Below, one piece after another: positions 21,611-47,181 of a stretch of DNA of 64,000 nt. How positions within the stretch are numbered: the first letter of the stretch is position 1; each line of letters opens with the position of its first letter. The notes beneath the pieces were generated by a model. It did not search any database, was not told where the DNA came from, and saw only the letters and a program-made list of their open reading frames with translations. The DNA comes from a virus (lineage: Duplodnaviria > Caudoviricetes): IMG/VR virus record IMGVR_UViG_3300029705_000042; one strand, given 5' to 3'. Position numbers and translations under genes: made by a program.

Positions 21611-21612
21611 TT

Positions 21613-24410: not shown

Positions 24411-24411
24411 C

Positions 24412-24498: not shown

Positions 24499-24521
24499 AT
24501 ATTTCTTTTTATTACACAAAC

Positions 24522-26795: not shown

Positions 26796-26822
26796 TTAAA
26801 ATTATCCTTTTAAGATATAAGC

Positions 26823-27476
26823 TTAATAGTTTAAGCAAACACATCTGCCATCATTCAACTGCATATACTGTTCTTCTTCCAACAAGTCCTCGCCAAACTT
26901 TTCAAAGTCAAAGTATCTTTCTGCAACCGAATTACTATCTACATATCCAAGGCTATATGCTTCGTCATAACCCAAATCATAAACACTATCAAACACACAA
27001 CCTACAATTCCTCTATCTCTATAATCAAGATAGTATTCATCGAAAATCTGTTCAATATCTTCTTCGTCAAATCCGTATTCGTCCATCAAATACTCTTTTT
27101 CTTCTTCGATTACTTCATTAAACAGCTTTTTATTCTCTGCGGACAACAGCTTGTCATATACGGATTGAATTGCGTTACAAAGTTCAATACCTTTGTTGTA
27201 TCTTTCATCACCTTTAGTTATTCCATAACCCAAATCGTTTATATCCTTATTAAACTTAATAAGCTGATTATATTCATCTTCTGTTAAAACAGTTTTAATA
27301 TCCTCATAGTTAGCAAAATCGTGTCCGCTATAACAAGCACCATGCAATATCACACTTCCAAAATAATGGTCGCACTCCCATCTTTTAGGCGTTGTTTCAA
27401 TGTATGCACAACAATCTCTGCCTTCCGCATATTCCTTATACAAAAATACATATCTTTTCATTTTAAATCCCTCCAT
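26823..27476 (-). CDS. Acidic protein with ArdA-like (antirestriction, DNA mimic) C-terminus
   Basis: C-terminal RYFDFEKFGEDL resembles the ArdA motif YFDYEAFGRDL; very D/E-rich. Confidence 0.55.
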   Translation of the reverse strand: MEGFKMKRYVFLYKEYAEGRDCCAYIETTPKRWECDHYFGSVILHGACYSGHDFANYEDIKTVLTEDEYNQLIKFNKDINDLGYGITKGDERYNKGIELCNAIQSVYDKLLSAENKKLFNEVIEEEKEYLMDEYGFDEEDIEQIFDEYYLDYRDRGIVGCVFDSVYDLGYDEAYSLGYVDSNSVAERYFDFEKFGEDLLEEEQYMQLNDGRCVCLNY

Positions 27477-27482
27477 ATAAAA

Positions 27483-28003
27483 TTAGTCTTTTAATTTATT
27501 TGCTATGACGGACAATTCCAAAAGCACCTCGGAATTTCTGTCATACTTTTCAATTTCTTCATCCGTAAATCTTTCGGTCTTTTCATCCATCTTCCAGTTC
27601 TCTTGTTGTCTCTTGATTTCTTCCATCCTAACCAAGCACATAAGAATTGTTTGCTCTCTGTTTGTTAATTCAACTGTTTTCATATTTGAATACTCCTATA
27701 AATTTTCTTATGTATGGTTGAACGGATTTTATTCCGTTCAACCTATTCTTAATGTTTTATAAATCACCAGTTTTCCTTATCAATTACTGCGTTATGCTTC
27801 ATAGCATATTCATAAAAATCTTCCGTATCATCTGCGGTATATTCTGTTAGAAAATCTTCCAAGTCTTTGAAGTATTCGCCTTTGTTGCATTCTTTGAAGT
27901 ATTGTTCGGCAAATTCTTTTGTGACTAAAACTTCCGTTAAGTTTTCACTTTCATCATGTTCCTCAATCGTATCACGATAAACGCAAATCCATAGTTTTTC
28001 CAT
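27483..28003 (-). other. Two small hypothetical genes (27483-27683, 27764-28003)
   Basis: ORFs with RBS, separated by a hairpin at about 27716-27743. Confidence 0.6.
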
Positions 28004-28031
28004 GATTATTCACTCCTTATAAAATTATGTC

Positions 28032-28664
28032 TTATTCTTCGACAACTTCTACTGTTTTAGTGTGGATAAAATTGTTAATATTCCAATCATAACCGCTATT
28101 ATTACTTCCATATAAATCTACATAAGGCATACCATATACATTTGTTCCGTTTACAAATTTATCTTCACCAAAACCCATAACCTTATGTTTTACAAACTTT
28201 TCATTACATTCCTTGATGAAAACTGTATCACCAACATTTAAATCTTCCGTTGGGATTTCTTTTGCTTTAATATATTCTCCAATCTGTTCCTTCTCTGGCA
28301 TAGCTACATCAATTCCCATCAGCATATCTTCCATATCGTGATTCATTTGTTCACAACCTTTGAAATGCTTGCGGTCAACGATTTCCCAACCTTTGATGAT
28401 ATAAGTTCCGTTATCATAATTGTTGCAATCTAACTTGTCTACTGTATCAATTCCAACTGATAATGAACCACCAAAGAAATTTCCGATTACTTGACACAAT
28501 CTTGCCCATCCGTAACAATCTGCATCAGGACTACGATACCCTTTAAGTTCGCAATACTTTAGGAAAGCACTTACGCTATCATAGCCTCCGTTCCAATGTA
28601 AATAAACTCCAACACCATTGTTCTCAAAATTTTCTTTCGTTGTGATTACTGCACGATTACCCAT
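28032..28664 (-). CDS. Hypothetical phage protein
   Basis: MGNRAVI...GVYLHWNGG N-terminus; has its own promoter. Confidence 0.7.
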   Translation of the reverse strand: MGNRAVITTKENFENNGVGVYLHWNGGYDSVSAFLKYCELKGYRSPDADCYGWARLCQVIGNFFGGSLSVGIDTVDKLDCNNYDNGTYIIKGWEIVDRKHFKGCEQMNHDMEDMLMGIDVAMPEKEQIGEYIKAKEIPTEDLNVGDTVFIKECNEKFVKHKVMGFGEDKFVNGTNVYGMPYVDLYGSNNSGYDWNINNFIHTKTVEVVEE

Positions 28665-28712
28665 GATTCATCACTCCTGATGTTTTTTATTTACTTCTTA
28701 CCTTACACCTAT

Positions 28713-28747
28713 ATTATAGCATATAAAACATACATCGTCAAGTAGTT
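28713..28747 (-). promoter_or_regulatory. Sigma70/A-type promoter
   Basis: AACTAC-TTGACG-17-TATAAT. Confidence 0.75.
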
Positions 28748-28809
28748 TTCAGAATATTTTCTGTAAAATATTACACAAATTTTCCGTTAAGTTTTTGTAT
28801 ATTTTAACT

Positions 28810-28851
28810 AAAAAAGTTTGGACAGATAGACTTTCCATCTATCCAAACTTT
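28810..28851 (-). terminator. Intrinsic terminator
   Basis: AAAGTTTGGATAGAT...ATCTGTCCAAACTTTTT on the minus strand. Confidence 0.65.
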
Positions 28852-28861
28852 CAATCAATGC

Positions 28862-29257
28862 TTATACAAACAATGCTTTGACTTTAAATTCCGCTCCATT
28901 TGGATATGTTATATTAATATCCATTTGCAACTCTTGTTTTACAATCTTCACTTGTTTATCGTTCAATTCTATTGTATTTCCTTCTTTGTCGTGACTTGCA
29001 AATACACAATTACCAAAGATGACATCTAAAACTTGTTTAGTCTTTCCGTCAACAACGGCAATCTCTGCTTTTAATCCTTCGATATATTTACCTTCCTCGT
29101 TGATAATTACATCAATTACATTGTCACGAAACTCCTTGCTTATAAACGGAAATTCAATATAACCGCCTACAATGGTTTGTAATTCCTCCAAAGTGTTTTT
29201 AATTTCTTGCTCCTTGAATTGTCCGTTGCTTAATATCAACACCTTCATAGGAAACAC
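28862..29257 (-). CDS. DUF3846-like protein
   Basis: NTLEELQTIVGGYIE...INEEGK motif. Confidence 0.65.
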   Translation of the reverse strand: MFPMKVLILSNGQFKEQEIKNTLEELQTIVGGYIEFPFISKEFRDNVIDVIINEEGKYIEGLKAEIAVVDGKTKQVLDVIFGNCVFASHDKEGNTIELNDKQVKIVKQELQMDINITYPNGAEFKVKALFV

Positions 29258-29272
29258 ATCCTTTATTATAGT

Positions 29273-29678
29273 TTATCCTTCTATATGCTCCGTTACCTCA
29301 CCAGTTAAGATATGACTTTTAAGTGATATATATTTTCCATCACGCTTAAATACAATTACATTTACGGCTGGCTGCTCAAACCATTCGTCCGTTTCTCTTT
29401 CACCATAATGCTCTACATAATACTTGTACAAATTACTGTTAAATTGTTCTTTAGTTAAAATTGCCATTACAACACCTCTTATATATTTTTAATTATTTTT
29501 CCGTTACTTCCCCAGTTTGCATATCACAAACAAGAATAATTGTTTTGCCATCACGGTCAAATTTCCAAGTGTTGACCGCAGGATTTACATACCAAGCATC
29601 CGTATCACGCTCTCCAAAATGCTTTTTATAGTATCTGTCAAGTCGTGTGTGCAACTGTTTTTCCGTTAAAGTTTTCAT
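29273..29678 (-). other. Two tandem paralogous small genes (29273-29467, 29493-29678)
   Basis: Both contain LT..Q....L..YY..H.GER.TD.W...PAVN...F.RDGK.I.L.....TGEVTE. Confidence 0.7.
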
Positions 29679-29903
29679 TATATCTCACTCCTTATTTATA
29701 ATATACTTTAAAATATTGTCTTACATTGTTTTGGATAGCAGAACAAACAACCCACGCATATCCTTCCGATTTGATTTTTCCAATACAAATCACTTCACCA
29801 AGTTTTGCTTCGATTGCTGGAGATTCTTTAATACATTCCATATAGATATTATACCAAACCTTTTTCATGTTTCATCACTCCTTATATATTTTCCAAGCAA
29901 TAT

Positions 29904-30392
29904 TTAAATTGCATTGTCATCAATGATAAAATCCAATCTTGTTAATACATCGTCTTGTTCATTTGTAAACGGATTATAGATATAATATGTTAAGATTTTA
30001 TCTCCTTCTTTTGCTCCGTCTACACGCTCATAACTGATATAATTTCCACCATCTTTATTTGTATAACCACCATCATCAGTATTACAATTAAGGATTTCTC
30101 CATCTAACTTATGACTTGTAACCTTACCAATGATTTTTTCCACAACGATTTTTCCTTTTCTGTTCGCCATGACTTGCGGTGTTAGTTCGCTTGTATCATA
30201 GATTTCGATTGCGTTTACATCTTTAATCATATTGTCGTAAAATTCCATTTGTGAAACATTATCAACATATATTCCGTCATGTACTTTAGTTTCAGTTATT
30301 GATACATCATCTTTGAAATTCAAACCTATTGAAAATCCAACTGATAAACATATTCCAGTATGCAATACTTTTTGCAAGATTTTGTTCATCAT
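29904..30392 (-). CDS. Hypothetical protein with N-terminal hydrophobic/signal segment
   Basis: 162-aa ORF. Confidence 0.6.
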   Translation of the reverse strand: MMNKILQKVLHTGICLSVGFSIGLNFKDDVSITETKVHDGIYVDNVSQMEFYDNMIKDVNAIEIYDTSELTPQVMANRKGKIVVEKIIGKVTSHKLDGEILNCNTDDGGYTNKDGGNYISYERVDGAKEGDKILTYYIYNPFTNEQDDVLTRLDFIIDDNAI

Positions 30393-30669
30393 CCTTCATT
30401 CCCTTCGGCTTTGTTTAATGATTCAAAACTGGATGGAAGGTGTATAATTATTCAATTTTCCATCCAATGTTCAATCATTAAATGTCATTCGCAAGGCTTC
30501 CAAACCTCTACATATTTTCCGTTTGATTTTTCGTCTATAAAATCCTTCTCGTTGCAATGATAATATCCAGTAGCACTTAAAACTTCCGCATCATTATCAC
30601 TAACAAAAGCAACTCCGATTTCTTTAGTTTCTGCGTTCTTGTAGACTAAAAGCATTTTCCATCACTCCT

Positions 30670-32560
30670 TTAATTATTTTTGAGTTCCATCATTGCTTTT
30701 ATTAACACTTCATTCTCTGCATACTTTTTGATATAACGATAGCTCTTATAATTCGTCATGTTCTTATAAACATTGCCGATAATCAAATCTCCGTTATAGT
30801 CAAAGTAGAAAAGTATACCAACAGATTTTCCATCTTCTTTAAATTCTATGTGATACTTGTCACCTAACAGCTCTTTGTATACTTTCATTCCGTCAACTTC
30901 TTTATAGAAATGATAGTGAACAGTTTTGGTCATAATTAAAACCTCCGTTTAATCTTCATCATCGTATTCGCAACAATCGTTGATAATATCCACTATATCT
31001 TTAACAGATAACCATTCATATTTTCCGTTGACATAAACGCTACATCCGCATTCATCGTTTAAATCTCCGTACTTTCTCTCTAACAGTTCTAACAATTCTT
31101 CTTTTTCAATAAACATTTTCCAATCTCCGTTTTAAAATGATATTTTTATATGCTTGACAATATATTGTTTATTGAATATGTCATAATCCAATAATTAAAT
31201 CCTTGCATTTTTCTTCTGTTGTTGTTCATCTCTGTTGAATAATCGCAACAATCAATAAATTTATCCGTGATTTTCGCAAATTCTTTTTGTCCAAAATTCT
31301 CGTAAATTCCGTTTTCTTTTGCTTTTTTAGTTAATATCTTTTTTGCTCTGCTTATTGCTGTGTCAATCTTTTTACAGTTTAAATAATTTTCCATAATATT
31401 CTCCTTTAAAATAGTAGTTTTATAACCTTATATTTTATACTTCTTCTCCGTATGCTTCGAGAAATTCCATCTTCAAATCATCGACATTTTCTCCAATGCT
31501 TTCAAGGATTTTAATTGCCCTTCGTGTCATTTCCTTTGTGTCTTGTTCTTGCCTAATCTGTTCTGCAATACTCATATTAAAATCCTCCGTCAAACCAAAC
31601 CTTGTAAATTCATTACTCTTACACATAAAGCATCAAATTCTGCCTTTGTGATTTTCTTCCATTTCCAGAGCCAATCAATAGAACAAATACACCAGTAAAG
31701 GTCTAAACCAGTATATTTACTTGTTTCCAAGCAATCAAGAGTATCAAGTACAAGAGCATATCTCTTGTTGATTTCCTTTGCCTTATCGGTTTTCTTATTT
31801 GTTACCTTTTTCATAACTGCCTCCAAAATAATGAACATTCCCTTTGTTCTGCATACATTATACCACAAACAATCTACTTTGTCAAGTAGTTTTTAGAATT
31901 TTCTAACTGTTATTTTGCACAAAATTTTGACTTGTTTGTTGTGAAATTTGACTAATCCTCCGCTTAAAATGCGATTTTTATGTGGCGGTTTAAATTCTAC
32001 CGCCACATACTCTATCTTTTTCGTTGAAATAATCAACGATTTCATCCAACTTTTTTGTAACAAGAAAATCGGGAATTTCTCTGTTACCAAGAGTATGAAC
32101 GGGACAATGTGTATCCCTGCAATGCTTTACAAATCTCCGTAAAGCATCCCAATTATCAATGCCGTGCCAAACGATATGATATATCTCCTTTGGAAATTCG
32201 GGAAAACGATAAGTAATTAAATAATTTTTCATATCTTAAATCCTCCACTTAAAATACATGTTTTATAGTTTAATTTATCCACGCATTGCGTAAATCTTTA
32301 TAGTTTATTTTCTGTTTGACTATTAAATCGCATCCGTGATACCGCATTTTCAACTCCACTAAAAGCGATTTATATTCATCCTCTGTTGCCTTTTTGGTAT
32401 TGTGATAAAATTCCAAGTCCGCTTCGCTGTGTTGTCCTATGTGCATATAGGATAGAATTCTTCCATAATTTGCGCTTGCCTCTGGGAAGAATGCCACAAC
32501 CTCATATTTCTTTGTATATGGATTCTTTGCTTTCCTAAAGATAACCTTTACTTTTTCCAT
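30670..32560 (-). other. Small hypothetical genes (30670-30933, 31146-31394, 31435-31626, 31590-31814, 31990-32232, 32270-32560)
   Basis: Co-oriented ORFs with RBS; internal promoter at 31857-31891. Confidence 0.65.
31857..31891 (-). promoter_or_regulatory. Sigma70/A-type promoter
   Basis: AACTAC-TTGACA-17-TATAAT with extended TG. Confidence 0.8.
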
Positions 32561-32852
32561 CTTCGTTTCCTCCTTTTATTTTCCGTTTGATAACTCAAAT
32601 CATGAGAGGATAATTTTACTTGTTTTATCCTCTCAATCTTTCAATCATCAAAGCGTTTCCAAAAATTCGTTTACCTTTTTAAGTTCCGCTTCATCGGCTT
32701 TAACTTCAAAGTGTACCAAGTTGTAACAAGAGGATGGCTCAAAGTAAATTCCATTTTCTTTAAGATATACTTTAAGCTTTTCCGCATCTCCCTTGTTAAG
32801 CTCTACATTATAAAAGTTTTTCATGTTCCGTCAACTCCTATAAGTTTATGTT

Positions 32853-33407
32853 TTATTCCTCGTCCTCATAAGGTACATTGCATTTGATGTTGGTCAGCAC
32901 ATAACTCCAAGCAGTTCCATAATGAGTCACACCCCATACATACATATCAAGTTCCTCATTGTAGAATACAATCTCGTTGATTTCTTTGAGAATTTCCGCT
33001 CCATTGTCGCTTACAATGTAATACTGATAACATTCTTCGTTATAAGAATCTTCCTGCTCTTCTTCAAGCTCATTGATTTTATCTTGAAGTTCTTCCATCT
33101 TGCTTACCATAGCAAGATGTTTTTCACTGTTCTCAAAGCTTTCGTCTGCATCAATCATTTCGCTGATATCATACATAATGCTGTCGATTTCTTCCTGAAG
33201 TTCTTCGATTTCTTCCGTGTTGTCTACCATTCCGCTTTCCTGCTCCCAGTAGCCTATTTCATAGGTTTTCTGGATGATGTCGTTATTCAACACAGCATCA
33301 AAAGCTTTTGCCAAAGTTCCGTAATCAACATATCCGTTTTCCTGTCCGTATTCGCTGATTTCGTTTCCGTAAAAGTATTTTCCGTGTACCTGCATGTTGT
33401 TTTTCAA
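32853..33407 (-). CDS. Highly acidic hypothetical protein with coiled coil
   Basis: 184 aa, D/E-rich. Confidence 0.7.
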   Translation of the reverse strand: MKNNMQVHGKYFYGNEISEYGQENGYVDYGTLAKAFDAVLNNDIIQKTYEIGYWEQESGMVDNTEEIEELQEEIDSIMYDISEMIDADESFENSEKHLAMVSKMEELQDKINELEEEQEDSYNEECYQYYIVSDNGAEILKEINEIVFYNEELDMYVWGVTHYGTAWSYVLTNIKCNVPYEDEE

Positions 33408-33671
33408 CTCCTTATATTTATAATTTTATTTGTTGACTTGTTTATAGGACGATTTTTCAATCGTCCGTTATTTTTCTACATAATATAGAATGTAACCATA
33501 TTGAAAAGTGAATTTGTACTTAACCATTTTATACTCTGGATGTTCTTTCAACCAATCGTCCATCTCATACGCTTCTGCAAAGTAATATTTTACTTTGATT
33601 TCTTTTCCGTCTGTTGTTTTCATGATGAACACCATCCTTTGTGGTTATGGTCTTTCCTTATCCTCAAATAC

Positions 33672-33706
33672 AGTATAGCATACGAAACATACCTTGTCAA
33701 GTAGTT
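33672..33706 (-). promoter_or_regulatory. Sigma70/A-type promoter
   Basis: AACTAC-TTGACA-17-TATACT with extended TG. Confidence 0.75.
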
Positions 33707-33759: not shown

Positions 33760-33969
33760 TTAATCAATGGATTTTCCAATAGCATTCATACAAGCTTCAC
33801 GGAAGAATGTGTTTTTTGGAATATTATTTTCCTCGCAGTACGCTTCAATATCTTCCAACTCTGTGATTTTGAATAAAACTGTCTGGCGTTTATAATTTTT
33901 CTTTTCGTATTCTTTCCTTGCTTTTTTATTACACTCCATTTGATTCTTTTCTCTTATTGTCTTTGCCAT
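33760..33969 (-). CDS. Small ribbon-helix-helix-like protein
   Basis: YEKKNYKRQTVLF...IEAYCEENNIPKNTFFREA; start moved to 33969 (AGGAGG RBS). Confidence 0.55.
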   Translation of the reverse strand: MAKTIREKNQMECNKKARKEYEKKNYKRQTVLFKITELEDIEAYCEENNIPKNTFFREACMNAIGKSID

Positions 33970-33994
33970 AACAAATTTCCTCCTTTTCCATTTC

Positions 33995-34081
33995 AGCATA
34001 CCCACTACTTTAGATTTGTGGTGTGTAGCTTTAAACAGCGGATTTCTTGTAGCTTTCCGCTGTCCTATCAGCTTTTATGCT
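33995..34081 (-). ncRNA. Twister ribozyme, P5-type permutation (variant)
   Basis: P5 AGCATA/TATGCT, P2 AGCT/AGCT, GA-TAG pairing with CTA in loop 4 (TCTAAAGT), long closed P1, UAA cleavage loop at 34033-34031. Confidence 0.75.
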
Positions 34082-34278
34082 ATTATTATGTCGCTCATAT
34101 CCATTGGTTTTCCAACCTTATTCCATTGTGTTACGCTGATTTGATACCCTTCGCTTTCGGGGAATTTTTCTTTGAAAATCATATACATCCCTTCCGCTTG
34201 CGTTAAGCTTGTAATACTTCTTTCCGCTGTTGCAAAAAAGTGATAACCATTCTTTGAAACATTGATTTCATAATACAT
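34075..34278 (-). CDS. Hypothetical protein
   Basis: GGAGG RBS; the last codon and stop form part of the twister P5 stem. Confidence 0.7.
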   Translation of the reverse strand: MYYEINVSKNGYHFFATAERSITSLTQAEGMYMIFKEKFPESEGYQISVTQWNKVGKPMDMSDIIIA

Positions 34279-34291
34279 AATACTTTCCTCC

Positions 34292-34681
34292 TTATGCTTT
34301 CAAAGTTTCAACCAATTCAACAAGTTTATCATAAAAATCTTCCGAAACATAACCAGCAAGATAACCGCCAATCTCATTTATCCATTGATAGATAAATTCA
34401 TCTTCGTCATCTTCATACTGGCAACTTTCGTACCAATTTTCTTTGGTAAACTCTTTGAATTTTTCCATATTGTTTGTGATAAGTTCCGTCCACTTCACAA
34501 TTAAAATATCGTCGTTCTGTTCTTCCAATTCGACTTTCTTCATCAGTTCAATGCAGAATTTATCATAATTATCTTCCGCATCTTCTTCGTCAATGTAGCA
34601 AACAGTAACTCCAGTATCAAAAACTGTGTCGCAGGTATCGTAATCGTTCTGGGAGATTTTCATAAAGTCATATAATTTCAT
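34292..34681 (-). CDS. Acidic hypothetical protein
   Basis: 129-aa ORF with RBS. Confidence 0.7.
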   Translation of the reverse strand: MKLYDFMKISQNDYDTCDTVFDTGVTVCYIDEEDAEDNYDKFCIELMKKVELEEQNDDILIVKWTELITNNMEKFKEFTKENWYESCQYEDDEDEFIYQWINEIGGYLAGYVSEDFYDKLVELVETLKA

Positions 34682-34710
34682 ATAATTTTCCTTCCTTCTC
34701 TTTTTATTTT

Positions 34711-34787
34711 AGCACCTACCTACTTTGGATATGGTAGTGTAGCTTTACTACGGAAAATAAATTTTCCGTAGCCATCAGCCTTATGCC
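34711..34787 (-). ncRNA. Twister ribozyme, P5-type permutation (variant)
   Basis: GGCAT..GGCT-GA-TGG-[P1 CTACGGAAAAT/ATTTTCCGTAG]-TAA-AGCT-AC-[P4 CTACC ATATCCAAAGTA GGTAG]-GTGCT; TGG/CCA covaries with TAG/CTA of the sister copy. Confidence 0.75.
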
Positions 34788-35986
34788 TTGATAGTACATC
34801 TTGTCAGCTCTGTCTGTTTGACTCCCTTGTACTCATTGTGCGCTTTAATTGTTCCCTTGATTTTCCCTTTAAAATCGTCTTGCAACCAATTTGAAGTTTT
34901 CCATGTGAAAATGTTTCCATTTTCATCAACGATTTTGTAAATTGTGACAGTACCAAAATCGGTTGACCAACTTGTTAAAGCCTTAACAAGTGATACACAA
35001 AATTCAATTCTATCACCAATCTTTCCAACATGAGCGGAAATTTCTCGCTCTTTTTGTTTTTCTTCTTCCAATTTTCTACGCTGGGATTCTTTTTCAAGCT
35101 CCTTATCATAAGTAGGAAGAAGAGAAACCAAAATACCGATTTGTCCATAATTAACAAATCTCAAACTTCCGACAACCTTCAAATTATGCATATAATTTCC
35201 GTTGCCTTCTTGATTTGCCAACCATTCAAGAGCAGATTTTGCGATTCTTTCCGCTTTTGCGCTATGTGCATCGAATGCAACTCTTCGCATTTCTTCCTCG
35301 CATTGCTCCTCCATCTCTTTGCTCATCGGAAGACCTCCATGCTCTACAAAGTAGTAGTCCATAGTTTGCTTTTTGGTATTTCGTTCACTTGTGTTATATG
35401 CAGGGATATAACCAAAATGACGAATGGTTTCGCTTGCGTAACATAAGATTTCAAAAGTATCATAATATCTTTGCATTGTACCAAGATTATTGACTTCCTC
35501 ACCTTGAATAAGTTCGTCAAAATAGGCAATATACCTTGCTATATTTTCCGCACTCATTCCGTTTGTAAAGTCCTTCAAACAAGCCTTTCCAACCTGCTTG
35601 AATTCTCCATTTTCGGTATTCTGCACAATATAAGTATATTTCCGTACTCTGTTACTATTGCAATGTTCACAAATCGGGTCAGCATTGTAGTAATTTTCTG
35701 GAATTTCAATTTCAGCGGATTCTACCGACTTTTTGAAGATATTTCCTTTTTCGGTATGCTCTACCGTTGCAATGAATTTCCAGTTATTAATGATTGCCGT
35801 TCCACTTGCTTCTACTATGATGAATTTTGCGGTGTATGTTTTGCCATTTTCCATCTTGACTTCTTTAAACTCTTCGCCAATCCGTTCATAGTGAAAATCA
35901 CAACCGTATTTTTCACACTTGTTTCGGATAGCGTTCAACTTCTTTTCAAGTCTTTCCAGATTTCCTTCAAAAATAGAATATTGCAT
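34781..35986 (-). CDS. Phage protein with CxxC Zn site and C-terminal OB-fold-like domain
   Basis: CEHC, VGKACLKDF, and C-terminal HVGKIGDR...WKTS...IKGTIKAH...KQTELTRC. Confidence 0.7.
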   Translation of the reverse strand: MQYSIFEGNLERLEKKLNAIRNKCEKYGCDFHYERIGEEFKEVKMENGKTYTAKFIIVEASGTAIINNWKFIATVEHTEKGNIFKKSVESAEIEIPENYYNADPICEHCNSNRVRKYTYIVQNTENGEFKQVGKACLKDFTNGMSAENIARYIAYFDELIQGEEVNNLGTMQRYYDTFEILCYASETIRHFGYIPAYNTSERNTKKQTMDYYFVEHGGLPMSKEMEEQCEEEMRRVAFDAHSAKAERIAKSALEWLANQEGNGNYMHNLKVVGSLRFVNYGQIGILVSLLPTYDKELEKESQRRKLEEEKQKEREISAHVGKIGDRIEFCVSLVKALTSWSTDFGTVTIYKIVDENGNIFTWKTSNWLQDDFKGKIKGTIKAHNEYKGVKQTELTRCTIKA

Positions 35987-36024
35987 AGCTCCCTCCGTTT
36001 TTATTTTCCTTTTCTTTTTAATTC

Positions 36025-36103
36025 AGCATACCGCTTACTTTGGATATAGCGGTGTACCTTTAACAAGACAGATATTTCCGTCTTGCCCATCAGGGTTTAT
36101 GCT
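36025..36103 (-). ncRNA. Twister ribozyme, P5-type permutation (variant)
   Basis: AGCATA..CCCT-GA-TGG-[P1 GCAAGACGGA/TCTGTCTTGT]-TAA-AGGT-AC-[P4 ACCGCT ATATCCAAAGTA AGCGGT]-ATGCT. Confidence 0.75.
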
Positions 36104-36186
36104 TTGTTTAATTCTTCATCCAACTCTTTTAAAGCTTGTTCAAGTTCTTTTAAGAGTTGGTAGGTGTATAAGTCATAGACTTTCAT
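36097..36186 (-). CDS. 29-aa micropeptide
   Basis: MKVYDLYTYQLLKELEQALKELDEELNKA behind a GGGAGG RBS. Confidence 0.6.
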   Translation of the reverse strand: MKVYDLYTYQLLKELEQALKELDEELNKA

Positions 36187-36216
36187 TTTTTTACACCTCC
36201 CAGATAAAATTCTCCG

Positions 36217-36552
36217 TCAAGCTTCGTTGTGTTTGTCAATGATTTTCTGCAAGTCTGGCGTGATATTTTCCAAGACAGTATAGCCGTTTGCTTCTAACGC
36301 TTCTTCCATACCTTCTTTAATAAAATACTGTGTAACATCTTCAAATTGAATATCTTCCACGAAATTGTTTGCACCTACCCAGCCTTGTACATCATTTTCG
36401 TCGGGATTTACATAATCCCAACCAGCAACAAGCTCAAGATTAATTAAAATATATTCCGTATTGCCGTATGTTTCAAATTCTCCTACCTTGTAAACAAGAT
36501 TCCCAGTATCATTGACAACATAGAATTTATGATTTTCAAGATAATGTTTCAT
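36217..36552 (-). CDS. Acidic hypothetical protein
   Basis: 111-aa ORF. Confidence 0.7.
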   Translation of the reverse strand: MKHYLENHKFYVVNDTGNLVYKVGEFETYGNTEYILINLELVAGWDYVNPDENDVQGWVGANNFVEDIQFEDVTQYFIKEGMEEALEANGYTVLENITPDLQKIIDKHNEA

Positions 36553-36587
36553 AATTTATTCCTTCTCTCTTTTTATTTTTGTGGCTT

Positions 36588-36655
36588 CCCACTACACCCA
36601 GCGGAATTTTCCGCTGAATGTTTCGGCTGGTTGCCGTCCAGCCTCATCAGGTAGG
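36588..36655 (-). ncRNA. Type I hammerhead ribozyme (GUA site)
   Basis: CCTAC-CTGATGA-[GGCTGG..CCAGCC]-GAAA-[CATTCAGCGG..CCGCTGGGTG]-TA|GTGGG. Confidence 0.9.
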
Positions 36656-37198
36656 TCAATGTGCATACTCATAAACTGCTTCTCCGTTTGAGAAAATTCC
36701 AAGGCAATGCAATTCTCTCCATCCGTATTCGGGAGCAACCTTTTCCATCCAACGATTGATTTTGCGAATTTCCGCATCATACTTGCGAATTGCTTGACTT
36801 CTACACATATCATAGTAGTATCTGCAATCCTCATTGTCTAGTTCGTGCGGATTTTCCTTTTCTTCCACGAAAAGCTGAATACCTGTATAATATCCGCTTT
36901 TGAAAACGATTTTGTGGAATGTTAGAGTATCGTTCAATTCTTCCATCTTGTCTTTAAATCCGTCATAACCATTGATAATGTCATCATAGAATGTTTCATT
37001 CCATAAATCCATTGTTTCATTATAGGATTTTTCCAGAATGTGTTTTTTCCATTCGTCAGAAACAGCGACTTCATATTCAGGATAATAATACTCATCATAC
37101 TGAAATTCTTCCGCTTCATATTCTTCCAAACTGATAGGCTCAAAGGCTTGAATGTAAAGGCTAAAATTTTTCTGGGTATAAAAGTTTGGTGTACTCAT
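36656..37198 (-). CDS. Acidic hypothetical protein
   Basis: Likely start MSTPNFY at 37198; the upstream part of the track ORF is ribozyme sequence. Confidence 0.7.
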   Translation of the reverse strand: MSTPNFYTQKNFSLYIQAFEPISLEEYEAEEFQYDEYYYPEYEVAVSDEWKKHILEKSYNETMDLWNETFYDDIINGYDGFKDKMEELNDTLTFHKIVFKSGYYTGIQLFVEEKENPHELDNEDCRYYYDMCRSQAIRKYDAEIRKINRWMEKVAPEYGWRELHCLGIFSNGEAVYEYAH

Positions 37199-37233
37199 AA
37201 TATACCATCCTTCCTTTTCTCTTTTTAGTGATT

Positions 37234-37299
37234 TCTCACGACAAGAGGAAATTTTCCTCTTGTTTCGGACGGTCATCATCCGTCCATCATCAGGTGAGA
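37234..37299 (-). ncRNA. Type I hammerhead ribozyme (GUC site)
   Basis: TCTCAC-CTGATGA-T-[GGACGG..CCGTCC]-GAAA-[CAAGAGGAA..TTCCTCTTG]-TC|GTGAGA. Confidence 0.92.
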
Positions 37300-37302
37300 T
37301 TT

Positions 37303-37644
37303 TCAATAAATATCAACCGAAAAATCCGTTTCATTGTCACCATCGAAAAGCTCTTCATATCCTGCTTTGTTGTATTCTGCGGAAATAATAATCCAGTTGA
37401 TTTCTTCCGTATAGACAATTTCTCCAAACTGTTCCAGATATTCTTTGATACTTTCCGCATCCTTCGGTCTACAAGTGACATATACATCGTTTCCGCTGTC
37501 ATTTTCCACCTTGTAGAACATATCAGGATATTCCCTTGCATTATTCCATATATGCAAGAATGACAACGCATATTTCTGTACACCACCTTCAAGACGGACG
37601 GTGATTCGGATTGCTTTTTCTTTTTCATAGAACAAATTAATCAT
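37303..37644 (-). CDS. Hypothetical protein, paralog of 23949-24278
   Basis: See 23949. Confidence 0.7.
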   Translation of the reverse strand: MINLFYEKEKAIRITVRLEGGVQKYALSFLHIWNNAREYPDMFYKVENDSGNDVYVTCRPKDAESIKEYLEQFGEIVYTEEINWIIISAEYNKAGYEELFDGDNETDFSVDIY

Positions 37645-37680
37645 GATTTTTTCCTTTTCTTTTTTAAATTTTTGTAGTTT

Positions 37681-37739
37681 CCTACGACACGGATTTCTCC
37701 GTGTTTCGACAAGTAACTATCTTGTCATCATCAGGTAGG
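37681..37739 (-). ncRNA. Type I hammerhead ribozyme (GUC site)
   Basis: CCTAC-CTGATGA-T-[GACAAG..CTTGTC]-GAAA-[CACGG..CCGTG]-TC|GTAGG. Confidence 0.92.
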
Positions 37740-37741
37740 TT

Positions 37742-38113
37742 TCAAATTTCACAGCAAGTTAAATTCCAAGCGTTTCCAAGCTCGTAATATAATCCGTATT
37801 TTCCAAGAATTTTGGAAAATTCCATCTCAAATTTTGCTCCCCAGTATCCATTTAATACTTCGTATAAACTTCCTTCAAAGCTCATACTCAAAATATTTGG
37901 CTCTGCGACATACTCAAAATAATCCTTCGGGTTTGCCTCATACTCAAAATATTTATTTTGGTTATAGCAAAATTCTGTTCCGTCCTTGCTATTTGTGCTC
38001 CAGCATTTTCCATTAAAATAAATGTGTACATCAATCCACAATTCATTTTTAATCAAAAATGCGTGAATTTCCTTTGCTAACTGTTCAATTTTTTTATGCT
38101 GTTTTGCATTCAT
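37742..38113 (-). CDS. Hypothetical protein
   Basis: Likely start MNAKQHK at 38113, downstream of a hammerhead. Confidence 0.7.
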   Translation of the reverse strand: MNAKQHKKIEQLAKEIHAFLIKNELWIDVHIYFNGKCWSTNSKDGTEFCYNQNKYFEYEANPKDYFEYVAEPNILSMSFEGSLYEVLNGYWGAKFEMEFSKILGKYGLYYELGNAWNLTCCEI

Positions 38114-38146
38114 TTTTGACAGCTCCCTTTTCGCTTTTATGTGGTT

Positions 38147-38202
38147 TTCCACGACGCTCCAAGCGTTTCGGCAAGTGACCAACTTGCCATCGTCAGGTGG
38201 AA
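38147..38202 (-). ncRNA. Type I hammerhead ribozyme (GUC site)
   Basis: TTCCAC-CTGACGA-T-[GGCAAG..CTTGCC]-GAAA-[CGC..GCG]-TC|GTGGAA. Confidence 0.9.
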
Positions 38203-38203
38203 T

Positions 38204-38320
38204 TTACTTTTGTCCGTCAAATTTACAAATACCTTCTTTGACAGCTTCTTTTGCGATTTCTCCCTTGCCAGTAGTCAGGAAGATAATCCAATTCAAGATT
38301 GATTTTAGTACTTTTTTCAT
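38204..38320 (-). CDS. 38-aa micropeptide
   Basis: MKKVLKSILNWIIFLTTGKGEIAKEAVKEGICKFDGQK; ATGA-coupled to the upstream gene. Confidence 0.6.
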   Translation of the reverse strand: MKKVLKSILNWIIFLTTGKGEIAKEAVKEGICKFDGQK

Positions 38321-38523
38321 ACGATTTTTCCTCCGCATTTAATAATACTTGCAATTATAACCATTGTTTCGGATTCTCCGAAGTGCATTCTATAACGCAA
38401 CATGTTATATATTTCTTCAAATGATATGGGATTACCAGATAATGTATTTCCGAAGTATGCAGTATTATCTTTGTTTGCGTTAATAATCTGTTCACATTCT
38501 TTTTTCGTCCAATGATTTTTCAT
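38317..38523 (-). CDS. Hypothetical protein
   Basis: 68-aa ORF directly downstream of a pistol ribozyme. Confidence 0.65.
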   Translation of the reverse strand: MKNHWTKKECEQIINANKDNTAYFGNTLSGNPISFEEIYNMLRYRMHFGESETMVIIASIIKCGGKIV

Positions 38524-38557
38524 ATGATTTTTTCCTTTTCTTTTTATTCAGGTTTTC

Positions 38558-38627
38558 ACCTACCCCAGCGGATAAAACCGCTGGACGCTCACGGCTTAAA
38601 GGTCTGTTTATACTTGCCGTGACAAGT
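38558..38627 (-). ncRNA. Pistol ribozyme
   Basis: P1 ACTTG/CAAGT whose loop pairs with GCCGTG, ATAAACAG linker, P2 ACCT/AGGT, TTAA-GCCGTG-AGCG, P3 TCCAGCGG/CCGCTGGG, G|U site. Confidence 0.88.
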
Positions 38628-38629
38628 TT

Positions 38630-38986
38630 TTAAAGCATCGTGTAAAGCTCTTGCAGGTCTGCATAAAATACAGGTTTGTTTTCGGCAAGGTCTTGCATCA
38701 TGACAGCTTCTTTTGCTCCCGTCATACGCTTTATATTGTGCTTGCGTTTGTATGCTTCTCTAAAGTCTGCAAATTCAGCATCAAGCAAAGCATAAACGCA
38801 TCTTTTCATGACGGATTGATAACAGTATGATTCCCAAGTACGATTATAGTACTGAACTTTTGCCTCGCCTATCAAACTACCGTTTTTATACAGTTTTGTT
38901 TCATGTACAAAACCAGAACGATTTGAACGATAGGAATTGACAAATTCATACTCATTATTGTTTATAATCTTTGTTGTAGTACTCAT
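38630..38986 (-). CDS. Hypothetical protein
   Basis: Likely start MSTTTK at 38986, downstream of a hammerhead. Confidence 0.7.
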   Translation of the reverse strand: MSTTTKIINNNEYEFVNSYRSNRSGFVHETKLYKNGSLIGEAKVQYYNRTWESYCYQSVMKRCVYALLDAEFADFREAYKRKHNIKRMTGAKEAVMMQDLAENKPVFYADLQELYTML

Positions 38987-39010
38987 AATATAGCACCTTC
39001 CTTTTCTTTT

Positions 39011-39072
39011 AATCTGGACGCCTTGACTTGCAAGGCGTTTCGTCTTAATTTTCAAAGACTCATCAGCAGATT
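39011..39072 (-). ncRNA. Type I hammerhead ribozyme (GUC site)
   Basis: AATCTG-CTGATGA-[GTCTT..AAGAC]-GAAA-[CGCCTTG..CAAGGCG]-TC|CAGATT. Confidence 0.93.
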
Positions 39073-39073
39073 T

Positions 39074-39325
39074 TTATATTACGCTTAATTCTTTTAATGC
39101 TTTTTTGCCTAGCGTATAAATATGCGTATCATCACAATTATATTTTTCATACCATTCGCACATAGTATTTGAGCCTATAAAAGCACGGAGACAGTCAAAA
39201 GTTAAACGCTTTTCAAAGTCGTTATATTGACCGCTTGCCTTTAGTTTTGGAGCGTATTCTTTGATTTTATCAATATGCTTTTCAAATTGATTTTTTACAA
39301 ATTCAAATTCATTTTGAAGCTTCAT
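39074..39325 (-). CDS. Hypothetical protein
   Basis: 83-aa ORF between two ribozymes. Confidence 0.7.
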   Translation of the reverse strand: MKLQNEFEFVKNQFEKHIDKIKEYAPKLKASGQYNDFEKRLTFDCLRAFIGSNTMCEWYEKYNCDDTHIYTLGKKALKELSVI

Positions 39326-39360
39326 GACTTATACCTTCCTTTTCTTTTTATTGAGTTTTC

Positions 39361-39431
39361 GCTCATCCCAGCCTTTATTGAGGCTGGACGCTCCCAGCTT
39401 AAGAGCCTATTTTTAATCGCTGGGACGATTA
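39361..39431 (-). ncRNA. Pistol ribozyme
   Basis: P1 TAATCG/CGATTA whose loop pairs with GCTGGG, AAAATAG linker, P2 GCTC/GAGC, TTAA-GCTGGG-AGCG, P3 TCCAGCC/GGCTGGG, A|U site. Confidence 0.85.
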
Positions 39432-39434
39432 TTT

Positions 39435-39704
39435 TTAACAAGTAATTAAATAACTATTTTTTGTAGTTACAATACGCCAGCCGTTTTTTACTTGCCAAGA
39501 TACTGTATATTGATAATCGTTATAACTGCAAATATGAAAGTTTTTGCCGTGTTCTGCTGAACACTTAAAAATTAAATCAATGAAAATATGATTTTCTAAA
39601 GGCGTATAACTTGAATAAATGTCATCAATCAAAAAGCCTTTGTCTTGTTTGGCTAGTTTAATCATTGCCTGACCTTTATGCGTTTTGCCGTCGATAACTT
39701 TCAT
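39435..39704 (-). CDS. Hypothetical protein
   Basis: 89-aa ORF between two ribozymes. Confidence 0.7.
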   Translation of the reverse strand: MKVIDGKTHKGQAMIKLAKQDKGFLIDDIYSSYTPLENHIFIDLIFKCSAEHGKNFHICSYNDYQYTVSWQVKNGWRIVTTKNSYLITC

Positions 39705-39740
39705 TTTTGACAGCTCCCTTTTCTCTTTTTATAGGATTTT

Positions 39741-39796
39741 ATCCCGACGCCCGTGCTGGGCGTTTCGTCGTAATTTTCAACGACTCATCAGGGGAT
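39741..39796 (-). ncRNA. Type I hammerhead ribozyme (GUC site)
   Basis: ATCCC-CTGATGA-[GTCGT..ACGAC]-GAAA-[CGCCC..GGGCG]-TC|GGGAT. Confidence 0.93.
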
Positions 39797-39807
39797 TTTA
39801 CGGGGAA

Positions 39808-40161
39808 TTATATAAAATACATTTCCCCGTTAATCTCAAGAGCAACAGCATCCTGATTCAATTCTGTTTTTACTGTCTCGCAAAAATCAATTACTTTTTC
39901 GATATTGTTTTGTAAATCTGTATCGCTACAATATGCAAATACCATTGTTGAACGTTCTTTTACTAAACCAGCAGAAGGGCTTACCCAGTATCCCAGAGCC
40001 TCGCAAGATGTAGCACCGCCGAAAGACTCGGAAAGTAAAACAGCGCAAGCATCAATATATTTTTTTGTGTTTGCTGTCTGGTTTATATCTACTGTTGACG
40101 GGATATAAACTGTAATTTTGCTAGACAATTTAAACATATTTTTTAATTTTGCGTTCATCAT
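39808..40161 (-). CDS. Hypothetical protein (DUF3574-like)
   Basis: FGGAT...GYWV...LVKE...ELNQDAVALE pattern; first gene of the early transcript. Confidence 0.6.
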   Translation of the reverse strand: MMNAKLKNMFKLSSKITVYIPSTVDINQTANTKKYIDACAVLLSESFGGATSCEALGYWVSPSAGLVKERSTMVFAYCSDTDLQNNIEKVIDFCETVKTELNQDAVALEINGEMYFI

Positions 40162-40190
40162 TTTTGACCGCCTCCATTATCTTTTTATTT

Positions 40191-40243
40191 TGCCTATCGC
40201 CTTTTTACATACGGGCTTTAGACCGTCAACGGCAGGTTTAGCA
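40191..40243 (-). ncRNA. Twister ribozyme, type P1
   Basis: TGC-TAA-ACCT-GC-CGTTG-ACGG-T-CTA-AA-GC-CCGT-ATGTAAAA-AGGC-GA-TAG-GCA maps element by element onto the canonical P1 twister (pseudoknots CTA/TAG and GC/GC). Confidence 0.85.
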
Positions 40244-40390
40244 GGGTATAACCTTAATAGTTATACCCCAGATAAAAAGATAAAGGAAAAGGAATTTTTA
40301 ACGTCGACTTGCTACATTTTCAAGCTTTCAGGTGTACGCCTCATGCGATACTTTTATAACCTTACGACTTGACACGCTTTCAAGCTCGAC

Positions 40391-40409
40391 TATTCAATTA
40401 TCAAGGAAC
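40391..40409 (-). promoter_or_regulatory. boxA-like antitermination signal in the leader
   Basis: GTTCCTTGATAATTGAATA resembles the Firmicute rrn boxA GTTCTTTGAAAAC. Confidence 0.5.
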
Positions 40410-40605
40410 GCCAGACCTGCTACGCCTTTATAGCCTCGTACGCTAAGGCTCGCGCCTCTGTTGCATCTCAGCGGTTGTAACGGCTGAACGCCTCCCGCCT
40501 GCTGGCTTTAACTGGCTATGTGGTTGTAACAAGTTACCCCAGCCAAACGGCTGACGGAGCTTTGAAGGTTTAGCAAGTTTTGCGCTTGCTTTACCTTACA
40601 CTTAA

Positions 40606-40634
40606 AGTATAGCATACCTTGCAAGGTAAGTCAA
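40606..40634 (-). promoter_or_regulatory. Early promoter P1 with palindromic spacer TACCTTGCAAGGTA
   Basis: TTGACT-17-TATACT with extended TG; perfect palindrome at 40615-40628. Confidence 0.8.
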
Positions 40635-40737: not shown

Positions 40738-40766
40738 ATTTTACCATACTTTGCAAGGAATGTCAA
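40738..40766 (-). promoter_or_regulatory. Early promoter P2 (tandem), with a similar spacer TTCCTTGCAAAGTA
   Basis: TTGACA-17-TAAAAT with extended TG. Confidence 0.75.
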
Positions 40767-47105: not shown

Positions 47106-47181
47106 GCTTCGATATCTCAATTGGCAGAGGACTTGATTTGTAATCAAGATGTTGTGGGTTCAATTCCCTCTCGAAGCTCCA
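47106..47181 (+). tRNA. tRNA-Thr (anticodon TGT)
   Basis: Acceptor GCTTCGA/TCGAAGC, anticodon arm CTTGA-TTTGTAA-TCAAG, T-arm with one T-T mismatch, encoded CCA. Confidence 0.85.

What the first reader, a model, noticed from the sequence alone, without database searches (positions are those of the whole stretch)
33995..40243. Ribozyme-punctuated operon: 12 self-cleaving ribozymes of three classes cut one early transcript into near-monocistronic mRNAs
Seen, in transcription order from the tandem promoters at 40.6-40.8 kb: twister-P1 (40191), hammerhead (39741), pistol (39361), hammerhead (39011), pistol (38558), hammerheads (38147, 37681, 37234, 36588), and twister-P5 (36025, 34711, 33995). Each internal ribozyme starts within a few nt of, or overlaps, the upstream stop codon and ends shortly before an A-rich RBS. 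This yields 12 units of 1-2 small genes in 6.3 kb. Cores are conserved while stems differ with compensatory pairing, which implies selection for function. Established: these classes leave 5'-OH and 2',3'-cyclic phosphate ends and are known to cluster in phage-like Firmicute DNA, but their biological role there is largely unknown. Inference: a host-nuclease-independent mRNA maturation system for immediate-early genes. It could stabilise messages (5'-OH ends are poor RNase J/Y substrates) and set per-gene expression. Mixing classes may avoid both mis-pairing and deletion by recombination.
Basis: partly seen in the sequence, partly recalled or inferred. Interest (0 to 1): 0.92.

Follow-up and report, generated by a model that had tools for sequence, protein, structure and literature searches.

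The report
Twelve-ribozyme array in phage operon
One promoter-to-promoter stretch of an uncultured gut phage carries a self-cutting RNA motif at nearly every gene boundary (12 in 6.3 kb, three classes), a very dense example of an arrangement known in phages since 2011 whose purpose has never been shown by experiment.

Summary
Observation confirmed. All 12 elements lie at the stated coordinates on the minus strand.

- Two pistols pass Rfam's gathering score.
- Six type I hammerheads have intact cores and three helices (about 0.05 expected by chance per window).
- One minimal twister-P1 has every conserved twister nucleotide and both pseudoknots.
- The three "twister-P5" calls get no Rfam hit. 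Comparison of 34 members from phage and MAG contigs shows a twister-type double-pseudoknot fold (96% paired, 24 of 27 pairs compensatory). One pseudoknot reads AC/GU in place of GC/GC.

The array fills the only long stretch of this gene arm without a strong promoter. Each ribozyme starts 0-11 nt after the upstream stop codon or overlaps it, and ends 24-37 nt before the next start codon. A complete related phage has a parallel array of 10 ribozymes.

Interpretation partly supported. Cutting one long transcript into one- or two-gene mRNAs is the best reading, but Perreault et al. proposed it in 2011. Protection more likely comes from the hairpin and strong ribosome-binding site that follow most cleavage sites, as in the synthetic RiboJ insulator. 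No RNA data exist.

This scan has already flagged similar arrays on other phage DNA. It is a new member of a known kind.

The parts
40738..40766 (-). Upstream promoter-like site TTGACA-17-TAAAAT with TG (11 of 12)
   Evidence: consensus match only
40606..40634 (-). Second promoter-like site TTGACT-17-TATACT with TG (10 of 12)
   Evidence: consensus match only
40245..40605 (-). About 360-nt GC-rich non-coding leader that the first twister would release
   Evidence: GC 0.44-0.64 against 0.25-0.35 around it, no sense ORF; MFE z-score -2.4; no Rfam family
40190..40244 (-). Minimal twister ribozyme, type P1, no P3; predicted cleavage U40240|A40239
   Evidence: Rfam RF03160 28.5 bits, E 0.008, below gathering score; all conserved nucleotides and both pseudoknots read from the sequence
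39741..39796 (-). Type I hammerhead a; cleavage C39746|G39745
   Evidence: weak Rfam Hammerhead_3 hit
39361..39430 (-). Pistol ribozyme a; junction A39366|U39365
   Evidence: Rfam RF02679 60.2 bits, above gathering score; a varying junction dinucleotide is tolerated (PMC4604425)
39011..39072 (-). Type I hammerhead b; cleavage C39017|C39016; the Rfam hit extends to 39090
   Evidence: RAGATH-1-hammerhead 39.3 bits, E 8e-4
38558..38627 (-). Pistol ribozyme b; cleavage G38563|U38562
   Evidence: Rfam RF02679 69.2 bits
38147..38202 (-). Type I hammerhead c (N7 = C, extra U after A9); cleavage C38153|G38152
37681..37739 (-). Type I hammerhead d (extra U after A9); cleavage C37686|G37685
37234..37299 (-). 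Type I hammerhead e (extra U after A9); cleavage C37240|G37239
36588..36655 (-). Type I hammerhead f (GUA triplet); cleavage A36593|G36592
36024..36103 (-). Variant type-P5 twister (TwX a); P5 holds the upstream stop codon; cleavage U36062|A36061
   Evidence: model R1 87.2 bits; pair counts; no Rfam hit
34709..34788 (-). Variant type-P5 twister (TwX b); cleavage U34747|A34746
   Evidence: model R1 87.6 bits
33994..34081 (-). Variant type-P5 twister (TwX c), T2 = UAG/CUA; cleavage U34033|A34032
   Evidence: model R1 76.3 bits; no Rfam hit
33760..40161 (-). Fifteen small ORFs (29-401 aa) in 12 units of one or two genes, each unit led by an A-rich leader and SD
   Evidence: only PHROG families of unknown function match
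33672..33700 (-). Next strong promoter-like site (11 of 12, TG), just downstream of the last unit; marks the end of the promoter-less stretch

Best explanation
This is a promoter-proximal operon of an uncultured tailed gut phage. A self-cleaving ribozyme occupies every intercistronic gap longer than about 30 nt: 1 twister-P1, 6 type I hammerheads, 2 pistols and 3 variant twister-P5.

Transcription from the tandem promoters at 40.7 kb gives one RNA of about 7 kb. The ribozymes cut it, probably during transcription, into a roughly 360-nt leader and 12 mRNAs of one or two genes.

Each upstream product keeps its stop codon and ends in the folded ribozyme body with a 2',3'-cyclic phosphate. Each downstream product starts with a 5'-OH and has a standard short 5' UTR. 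After a hammerhead or pistol this UTR is 39-41 nt in seven of eight cases. In seven of eight cases it begins with a 4-5-bp terminal hairpin made from the 3' strand of the ribozyme's closing stem, followed by an A-rich leader and a strong SD.

The likely benefits:
(i) Each cistron's translation and decay become independent of its neighbours. This is insulation, as in the engineered RiboJ part, and it suits a region whose genes are constantly exchanged.
(ii) Both new ends are structurally protected.

Shown here: the motifs, their positions and orientation, their conservation and covariation. Inferred: transcription as one unit, cleavage in vivo, and the benefits.
For: Motif identity:
- Pistols pass the Rfam gathering score.
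- Six hammerheads have intact cores and helices, against about 0.05 expected per window.
- The twister-P1 has all conserved positions.
- The variant twister family is 96.3% paired, with 24 of 27 pairs compensatory. T2 is 100% paired in three complementary versions, and GA, U|AA and the loop AA are invariant.

Placement: all 12 are on the coding strand, 0-11 nt after the upstream stop or overlapping it, and 24-37 nt before the next ATG. Junctions without a ribozyme are 30 nt or shorter.

One transcript: there is no strong minus-strand promoter between 40606 and 33700 and no minus-strand terminator. The next 17 kb of the same arm has a strong promoter about every 1.4 kb.

Lineage trait: complete phage G002 has 10 ribozymes of the same classes in 6 kb in a similar order. 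Other relatives have smaller mixed arrays. Gene content differs while the punctuation persists.

Precedent for activity: prophage hammerhead arrays cleave in vitro and in E. coli (PMC3088659).

Precedents for the benefits: RiboJ, a hammerhead plus a hairpin, normalises 5' UTRs, and uncleaved mRNA decays faster (PMC7536230). In B. subtilis, a 5' hairpin or a ribosome-binding site stabilises downstream mRNA (PMC3997798).
Against: - There is no RNA evidence at all for this phage.
- Ten of the 12 elements do not reach Rfam gathering scores.
- Three hammerheads carry an extra U after A9, and the three variant twisters have an altered T1. Neither change has been tested for activity here.
- The promoters and the absence of terminators are consensus-scan inferences.
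- A 5'-OH is an RNase J1 entry site, so cleavage could destabilise messages where the terminal hairpin is absent (hammerhead b, the twisters).
- The terminal hairpin is frequent but not universal in relatives: most hammerheads have it, but only 1 of 3 pistols.
- The stop codon lies inside P5 of the variant twisters, so terminating ribosomes could interfere with folding.
Confidence: 0.7

Rival explanations
1. The ribozymes act as timers, not stabilisers. Cleavage exposes 5'-OH ends that the host's RNase J degrades, so early messages are short-lived and early expression shuts off without a phage nuclease.
For: The glmS precedent: a ribozyme-made 5'-OH is an RNase J1 entry site that leads to rapid decay (PMC3997798). 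Hammerhead b and the four twister-type elements leave no tight hairpin at the very 5' end.
Against: Seven of the eight hammerhead or pistol products begin with a terminal hairpin followed by a strong SD, both known stabilisers in B. subtilis. In the synthetic RiboJ case, cleaved mRNA is more stable than uncleaved. The host, and so whether it has RNase J, is unknown.
Confidence: 0.12
2. The elements matter mainly at the DNA level or as selfish passengers. Conserved ribozyme-plus-leader segments would serve as recombination joints for swapping gene cassettes, or would spread like small mobile elements, with RNA cleavage incidental.
For: Gene content is mosaic between relatives while the boundary elements persist. 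The leader/SD segments are the longest direct repeats in the array (30 nt at 97%). The ribozyme tends to travel with the gene downstream of it.
Against: The stems covary while the catalytic cores and pseudoknots are preserved, which is selection on RNA structure. The ribozymes share little DNA identity with one another. All lie in one orientation at a fixed distance from stop and start codons.
Confidence: 0.08
3. The cleaved fragments, which carry 5'-OH and 2',3'-cyclic phosphate ends, are substrates for an RtcB-type ligase. They would be circularised or re-joined in new combinations, giving circular or spliced mRNAs.
For: Every internal fragment would carry both end types. Perreault et al. 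raised the possibility.
Against: Perreault et al. looked for spliced or circular products and found none. Nothing in the window points to a ligase. The terminal hairpins sequester the 5' end.
Confidence: 0.04
4. Only some of the elements are active. The variant twisters (T1 AC/GU) or the hammerheads with the A9-U insertion may be decayed or non-cleaving structured RNAs with another role, such as protein binding or 3'-end protection.
For: These elements get no Rfam hit. Some natural core variants of hammerheads cleave poorly (PMC3088659).
Against: Both variants recur in other phages with different stems. All invariant twister nucleotides are kept. They occupy the same kind of site as canonical ribozymes, and in L181 a variant lies 300 nt downstream of a canonical twister-P5.
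Confidence: 0.15

Closest known systems
Clustered hammerhead ribozymes flanking genes in prophages (Perreault et al. 2011, PMC3088659)
   Same: Several ribozymes lie on one strand and flank single genes or short gene blocks in phage DNA. The proposed role is processing long phage transcripts into gene-length mRNAs.
   Different: Here there are 12 elements of three classes in 6.3 kb, covering every long junction of one promoter-to-promoter stretch. The tested published arrays were triple hammerhead arrangements.
Ribozyme-associated gene neighbourhoods used to discover twister, pistol, hatchet and twister-sister (Roth 2014; Weinberg 2015; as summarised in PMC10085705 and PMC4604425)
   Same: Different self-cleaving classes occur near one another and near phage genes, and the class appears interchangeable at a given kind of site. 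The reason was still called unknown in 2023.
   Different: This locus shows the full layout: promoters, leader, one ribozyme per junction and standard 5' UTRs. A related complete phage provides a parallel array for comparison.
Type-P5 twister ribozyme (Rfam RF02684)
   Same: The three distal elements have the same order of P5, P2, T2, P1, U|AA, T1, P4 and loop elements, and the same invariant nucleotides. In relatives, canonical members sit at equivalent sites.
   Different: The T1 core is AC/GU, not GC/GC. P2 has 3 bp, there is no P3, and P5 embeds the upstream stop codon. The Rfam model does not detect them.
RiboJ synthetic insulator (hammerhead plus downstream hairpin; PMC7536230)
   Same: A ribozyme is followed by a hairpin and then the ribosome-binding site. 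Cleavage removes the upstream context and gives a standard 5' UTR.
   Different: RiboJ is engineered and is used once per gene behind a promoter. Here the arrangement is natural, repeated 12 times inside one transcript, and uses three classes. The hairpin reuses the ribozyme's own stem strand.
glmS ribozyme and RNase J1 (Collins 2007, as reviewed in PMC3997798)
   Same: Self-cleavage in a 5' UTR leaves a 5'-OH on the coding fragment.
   Different: glmS is ligand-dependent, and its product is degraded. Here no ligand domain is seen, and most products carry a protective 5' hairpin.

Membership tests
Pistol ribozyme (RF02679) | Match to the family model above the curated score | tested here: met
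   69.2 and 60.2 bits against a gathering score of 34.5
Pistol ribozyme (RF02679) | Pseudoknot between the P1 loop and the P2-P3 junction; two-nucleotide cleavage junction of fixed length | tested here: met
   UCACGGC/GCCGUGA and UCCCAGC/GCUGGGA, 7 bp each with compensatory differences. The junctions are GU and AU, and variation there is reported as tolerated.
Hammerhead ribozyme, type I | Core C3-U4-G5-A6-N7-G8-A9, G12-A13-A14, A15.1-U16.1 and H17 | tested here: met
   All six have the core. Three have one extra U between A9 and stem II, and the same insertion recurs in two hammerheads of G002.
Hammerhead ribozyme, type I | Three helices, with stems II and III closed and stem I open | tested here: met
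   Stems of 5-6, 5-7 and 5-12 bp; the MFE folds give the junction.
Hammerhead ribozyme, type I | Match to an Rfam hammerhead model above the curated score | tested here: not met
   The best hit is RAGATH-1-hammerhead at 39.3 bits against 56.3. One other hit scores 19.3 bits, and four are not reported.
Hammerhead ribozyme, type I | Tertiary contact between stems I and II, needed for fast cleavage at low Mg | not tested
   No obvious loop-loop partner was sought. Stem I is only 5-6 bp before the flanks.
Twister ribozyme, type P1 (RF03160) | P1, U|AA, P2, T1 (GC/GC), P4 with loop T2'-AA-T1', and GA plus T2 | tested here: met
   Read from 40244-40190. T2 is UAG/CUA, complementary, where the consensus has GGG/CCC.
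Twister ribozyme, type P1 (RF03160) | Match above the curated score | tested here: not met
   28.5 bits against 67.2, E 0.008. The optional P3 hairpin is absent.
Twister ribozyme, type P5 (RF02684) | Match above the curated score | tested here: not met
   No hit at E up to 10, even in 106-nt scans.
Twister ribozyme, type P5 (RF02684) | Order of helices and both pseudoknots, supported by covariation | tested here: met
   34 members, 96.3% paired against 30-43% for slid controls. T2 occurs in three complementary versions. The T1 middle pair is A-U in 33 members and G-C in 1.
Twister ribozyme, type P5 (RF02684) | Invariant nucleotides: U-A at the cleavage site plus A, G-A before T2, A-A in the P4 loop | tested here: met
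   Invariant in all 34 members.
Twister ribozyme, type P5 (RF02684) | Canonical T1 letters GC/GC | tested here: not met
   AC/GU in 33 of 34 members and GC/GC in L203:647-720. Pairing is kept, so this is a variant and not a break.
All four ribozyme types | Site-specific self-cleavage giving 2',3'-cyclic phosphate and 5'-OH ends | not testable with these tools
   No RNA run holds the stretch.
Ribozyme clusters in phage operons (Perreault 2011) | Several ribozymes on the coding strand flanking single genes or short gene blocks in phage DNA | tested here: met

The most novel reading that the evidence does not exclude
The array is a natural, modular insulation system. A portable cassette of ribozyme, terminal hairpin made from the ribozyme's own stem strand, A-rich leader and SD gives any downstream gene a context-free, end-protected message. 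This would let the phage lineage shuffle small early genes freely within one transcript. In this reading the AC/GU twister subclass, with the upstream stop codon inside P5, couples cleavage to termination of the upstream cistron.
Probability: 0.25. Interest if true: 0.7.

Novelty: new member of a known kind. Interest (0 to 1): 0.5.

Why it matters
The biological role of the many self-cleaving ribozymes in phage DNA has been an open question since 2011. A 2023 paper still calls the reason for their clustering unknown.

This locus, with its parallel in a complete relative, is a particularly clean natural design: one promoter region, one ribozyme per junction, uniform 5' UTRs, and three classes used interchangeably. 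It gives precise, falsifiable cleavage coordinates. It is also a ready construct for testing whether ribozymes insulate, stabilise or time phage messages.

It also shows that Rfam's models miss a widespread twister-P5 subclass and most of these phage hammerheads. Ribozyme density in phage genomes is therefore likely to be underestimated.

The phage is uncultured, so tests would have to be done in vitro or in a heterologous host.

Tried and rejected
- RNA evidence: the look-up of sequencing runs listed no RNA holder, only DNA runs from animal faeces metagenomes.
- Whole genome: none is held for this window.
- Close relatives by DNA: the phage collection gave only 40-nt matches to hammerhead cores in crAss-like phages.
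- Relatives through the 401-aa protein: no close locus in viral contigs. tblastn hits in large phages were all below 30% identity and useless for synteny.
- Two loose DNA patterns for the twister variant returned mostly chance matches. The 24-base pattern worked. L230, L231, L091 and L115 were rejected as chance hits.
- Other identities for the three distal elements (hammerhead variant, twister-sister, hatchet, RAGATH motif) were considered and dropped. No Rfam family matches, and the twister-P5 parse explains every conserved block.
- A possible twister upstream of the first gene in G002 could not be parsed convincingly.
- The leader 40245-40605 has no counterpart in the fetched parts of four relatives.
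- Roth 2014, Weinberg 2015 and Collins 2007 are not held in the paper library. I therefore could not check whether the AC/GU T1 variant or the largest known array is already described there.

Full report
**What is there**

The window is a tailed-phage genome. Terminase and portal lie on the plus-strand arm from 42 kb. A long arm of small minus-strand genes lies below 41 kb. The finding covers the first 6.3 kb of that minus-strand arm.

*Pistols.* An Rfam scan at gathering thresholds finds two pistol ribozymes at exactly the stated places: 38558-38627 (69.2 bits) and 39361-39430 (60.2 bits). Their P1-loop/junction pseudoknots are perfect 7-bp duplexes with different letters. The second pistol has AU at the cleavage junction where the consensus has GU. 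The biochemical paper calls that dinucleotide only modestly conserved (PMC4604425).

*Hammerheads and twister-P1.* A permissive scan adds three hits, all below gathering score:
- a RAGATH-1-type hammerhead at 39012-39090 (39.3 bits);
- a weak hammerhead at 39761-39802;
- a twister-P1 at 40190-40244 (28.5 bits, E 0.008).

I wrote a detector that requires the hammerhead core, closed stems II and III, the A15.1-U16.1 pair, H17 and an open stem I. It finds six type I hammerheads in the whole window. Twenty shuffles gave one hit in total, and 1.8 Mb of unrelated viral loci gave none. Each folds by MFE into the three-helix junction. Three of them carry an extra U between A9 and stem II. Two hammerheads in a related phage have the same insertion with quite different stems.

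The twister-P1 lacks the optional P3, which explains its low score. It has U|AA, T1 GC/GC, the loop AA, GA, and a T2 that reads UAG/CUA where the consensus has GGG/CCC, so pairing is kept.

*The three 'twister-P5' calls.* Rfam gives nothing for them, even in 106-nt scans. Read by hand, they have every twister element in the P5-permuted order:
- P5 (AGCAUA/UAUGCU, which includes the upstream stop codon);
- the 3' strand of P2;
- GA;
- T2;
- the P1 hairpin;
- U|AA;
- the 5' strand of P2;
- T1;
- P4, whose loop reads T2'-AA-T1'.

A 24-base pattern pulled ten homologs from IMG/VR. On a plain MAFFT alignment the structure is 98.5% paired, against 27-46% for slid controls.

A covariance model built from the nested stems only (R1) found further members in relatives and in MAG contigs. 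On 34 distinct members:
- 96.3% of cells pair, and 24 of 27 pairs show changes on both sides.
- T2, which the model does not contain, is 100% paired in three complementary versions: UGG/CCA in 18, UAG/CUA in 10, UGA/UCA in 6.
- The T1 core is AC/GU in 33 members and GC/GC, the canonical twister form, in one.
- GA, UAA and the loop AA never vary.

In L181 a canonical Rfam twister-P5 (55.5 bits) lies 300 nt upstream of a variant copy, on the same strand and in the same kind of gap. I therefore accept these as a twister-P5 subclass that the Rfam model misses. Cleavage itself is untested.

**Layout**

Ribozyme-like elements occur only between 33994 and 40244. Each begins 0-11 nt after the upstream stop codon or overlaps it. 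Each ends 24-37 nt before the next ATG.

Fifteen small ORFs form 12 units of one or two genes. The three junctions without a ribozyme are 30 nt or shorter. The proteins match only PHROG families of unknown function.

Strong minus-strand promoter-like sites lie at 40766-40738 and 40634-40606, and then not until 33700-33672, just past the last unit. There is no minus-strand terminator in between. The next 17 kb of the arm has such a promoter about every 1.4 kb. So the array fills exactly one promoter-to-promoter stretch.

After a hammerhead or pistol, the distance from cleavage site to ATG is 39-41 nt in seven of eight cases. In seven of eight cases the new 5' end folds into a 4-5-bp hairpin made from the 3' strand of the ribozyme's closing stem, followed by an A-rich leader and SD.

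**Relatives**

| Phage or locus | Ribozymes on one strand |
|---|---|
| G002 (complete, 146 kb) | HH, pistol, pistol, HH, HH, HH, canonical twister-P5, HH, variant twister, variant twister; ten in 6 kb, in an order much like the window's |
| L030 | pistol, hammerhead, variant twister within 1.2 kb |
| L203 | four variant twisters in 1.7 kb |
| L254 | five variant twisters in 2.4 kb |

Few genes are shared with the window. Where they are, the ribozyme upstream of a gene is kept (the variant twister before the orthologs of g12 and g13), while the one downstream differs in class. This points to a unit of ribozyme, leader and gene, and to selection for cutting as such and not for a particular fold.

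**How it most likely works**

One long transcript is cut into a leader and 12 short mRNAs. This is inferred from the layout, not shown, because no public RNA run holds the stretch.

The idea is not new. Perreault et al. 2011 reported multiple hammerheads flanking single genes in prophages, proposed processing into gene-length mRNAs, and showed triple arrays cleaving in vitro and in E. coli. Reviews of 2019 and 2023 still call the function elusive or unknown.

The glmS ribozyme's 5'-OH is an RNase J1 entry site. By contrast, a hairpin or ribosome-binding site at or near the 5' end stabilises B. subtilis mRNAs. The synthetic RiboJ part, a hammerhead plus a hairpin, is used to normalise 5' UTRs, and cleaved mRNA outlasts uncleaved mRNA. 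I therefore favour insulation plus structural end protection. A timer role through RNase J is the main rival.

Strict class alternation is not seen. There are runs of four hammerheads and three twisters, so the 'mixing' idea is weak. Neighbours differ in stem sequence, and the longest repeats in the array are the leaders, not the ribozymes.

The host phylum is open. MAG bins that carry the variant twister include Paludibacteraceae, Prevotella, Clostridia and Ruminococcus.

**Verdict**

This is a very dense member of a known kind. Earlier follow-ups in this scan reached the same verdict for similar arrays on other phage DNA. The twister subclass missed by Rfam and the RiboJ-like product design are the parts most worth a bench test.

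Noticed in passing
window 40245-40605 (-): A roughly 360-nt GC-rich leader (GC up to 0.64 against about 0.3 around it) lies between the promoters and the first twister. It has no sense ORF and no Rfam match. Its MFE z-score is -2.4, and it has no counterpart in the fetched parts of four relatives.
   Followed up: partly
window 16400-33700 (-): Beyond the ribozyme array, the same gene arm has strong consensus promoters with an extended -10 about every 1.4 kb (33700, 32834, 31885, 28741, 26207, 24550, 24350, 22474, 21604, 19634, 18663, 16453). This is a different way of subdividing expression.
   Followed up: partly
window 39745, 39365, 38562, 38152, 37685, 37239, 36592 (-), first 12-14 nt of each 3' product: Seven of the eight hammerhead or pistol products begin with a 4-5-bp hairpin, often with a GNRA-like loop, built from the 3' strand of the ribozyme's closing stem. 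After cleavage this hairpin would compete with the stem and cap the 5'-OH end. Most hammerheads in relatives show the same feature with other letters, but only 1 of 3 pistols does.
   Followed up: partly
window 38147-38202, 37681-37739, 37234-37299 (-); L244 6171-6236, 6844-6911 (+): Hammerheads with one extra U between A9 and stem II recur in two phages with unrelated stems. This suggests a tolerated subtype that Rfam models do not report.
   Followed up: partly
L243 2357-2441 (-): A SAM riboswitch aptamer (48.8 bits, above the gathering score) lies in a complete 167-kb phage genome (G005), about 7 kb from its ribozyme cluster.
   Followed up: no
L213 941-1505 (-): A ROOL RNA (310 bits) lies next to a tRNA gene in a phage contig that also carries the variant twister.
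   Followed up: no
L254 4498-6907 (-); L203 42-1690 (-): Homogeneous tandem arrays of the variant twister alone: five copies in 2.4 kb in a contig binned as Paludibacteraceae, and four in 1.7 kb in an IMG/VR contig.
   Followed up: partly
window 39029-39074 and 39754-39799: The only matches in the GenBank phage collection are 40-nt stretches of the hammerhead a and b cores, found in crAss-like phages cr131_1, cr272_1 and cr273_1 in unannotated regions. Those phages probably carry similar unannotated hammerheads.
   Followed up: no
window 24415-24498 (-), 47106-47178 (+): The phage window carries two tRNA genes.
   Followed up: no
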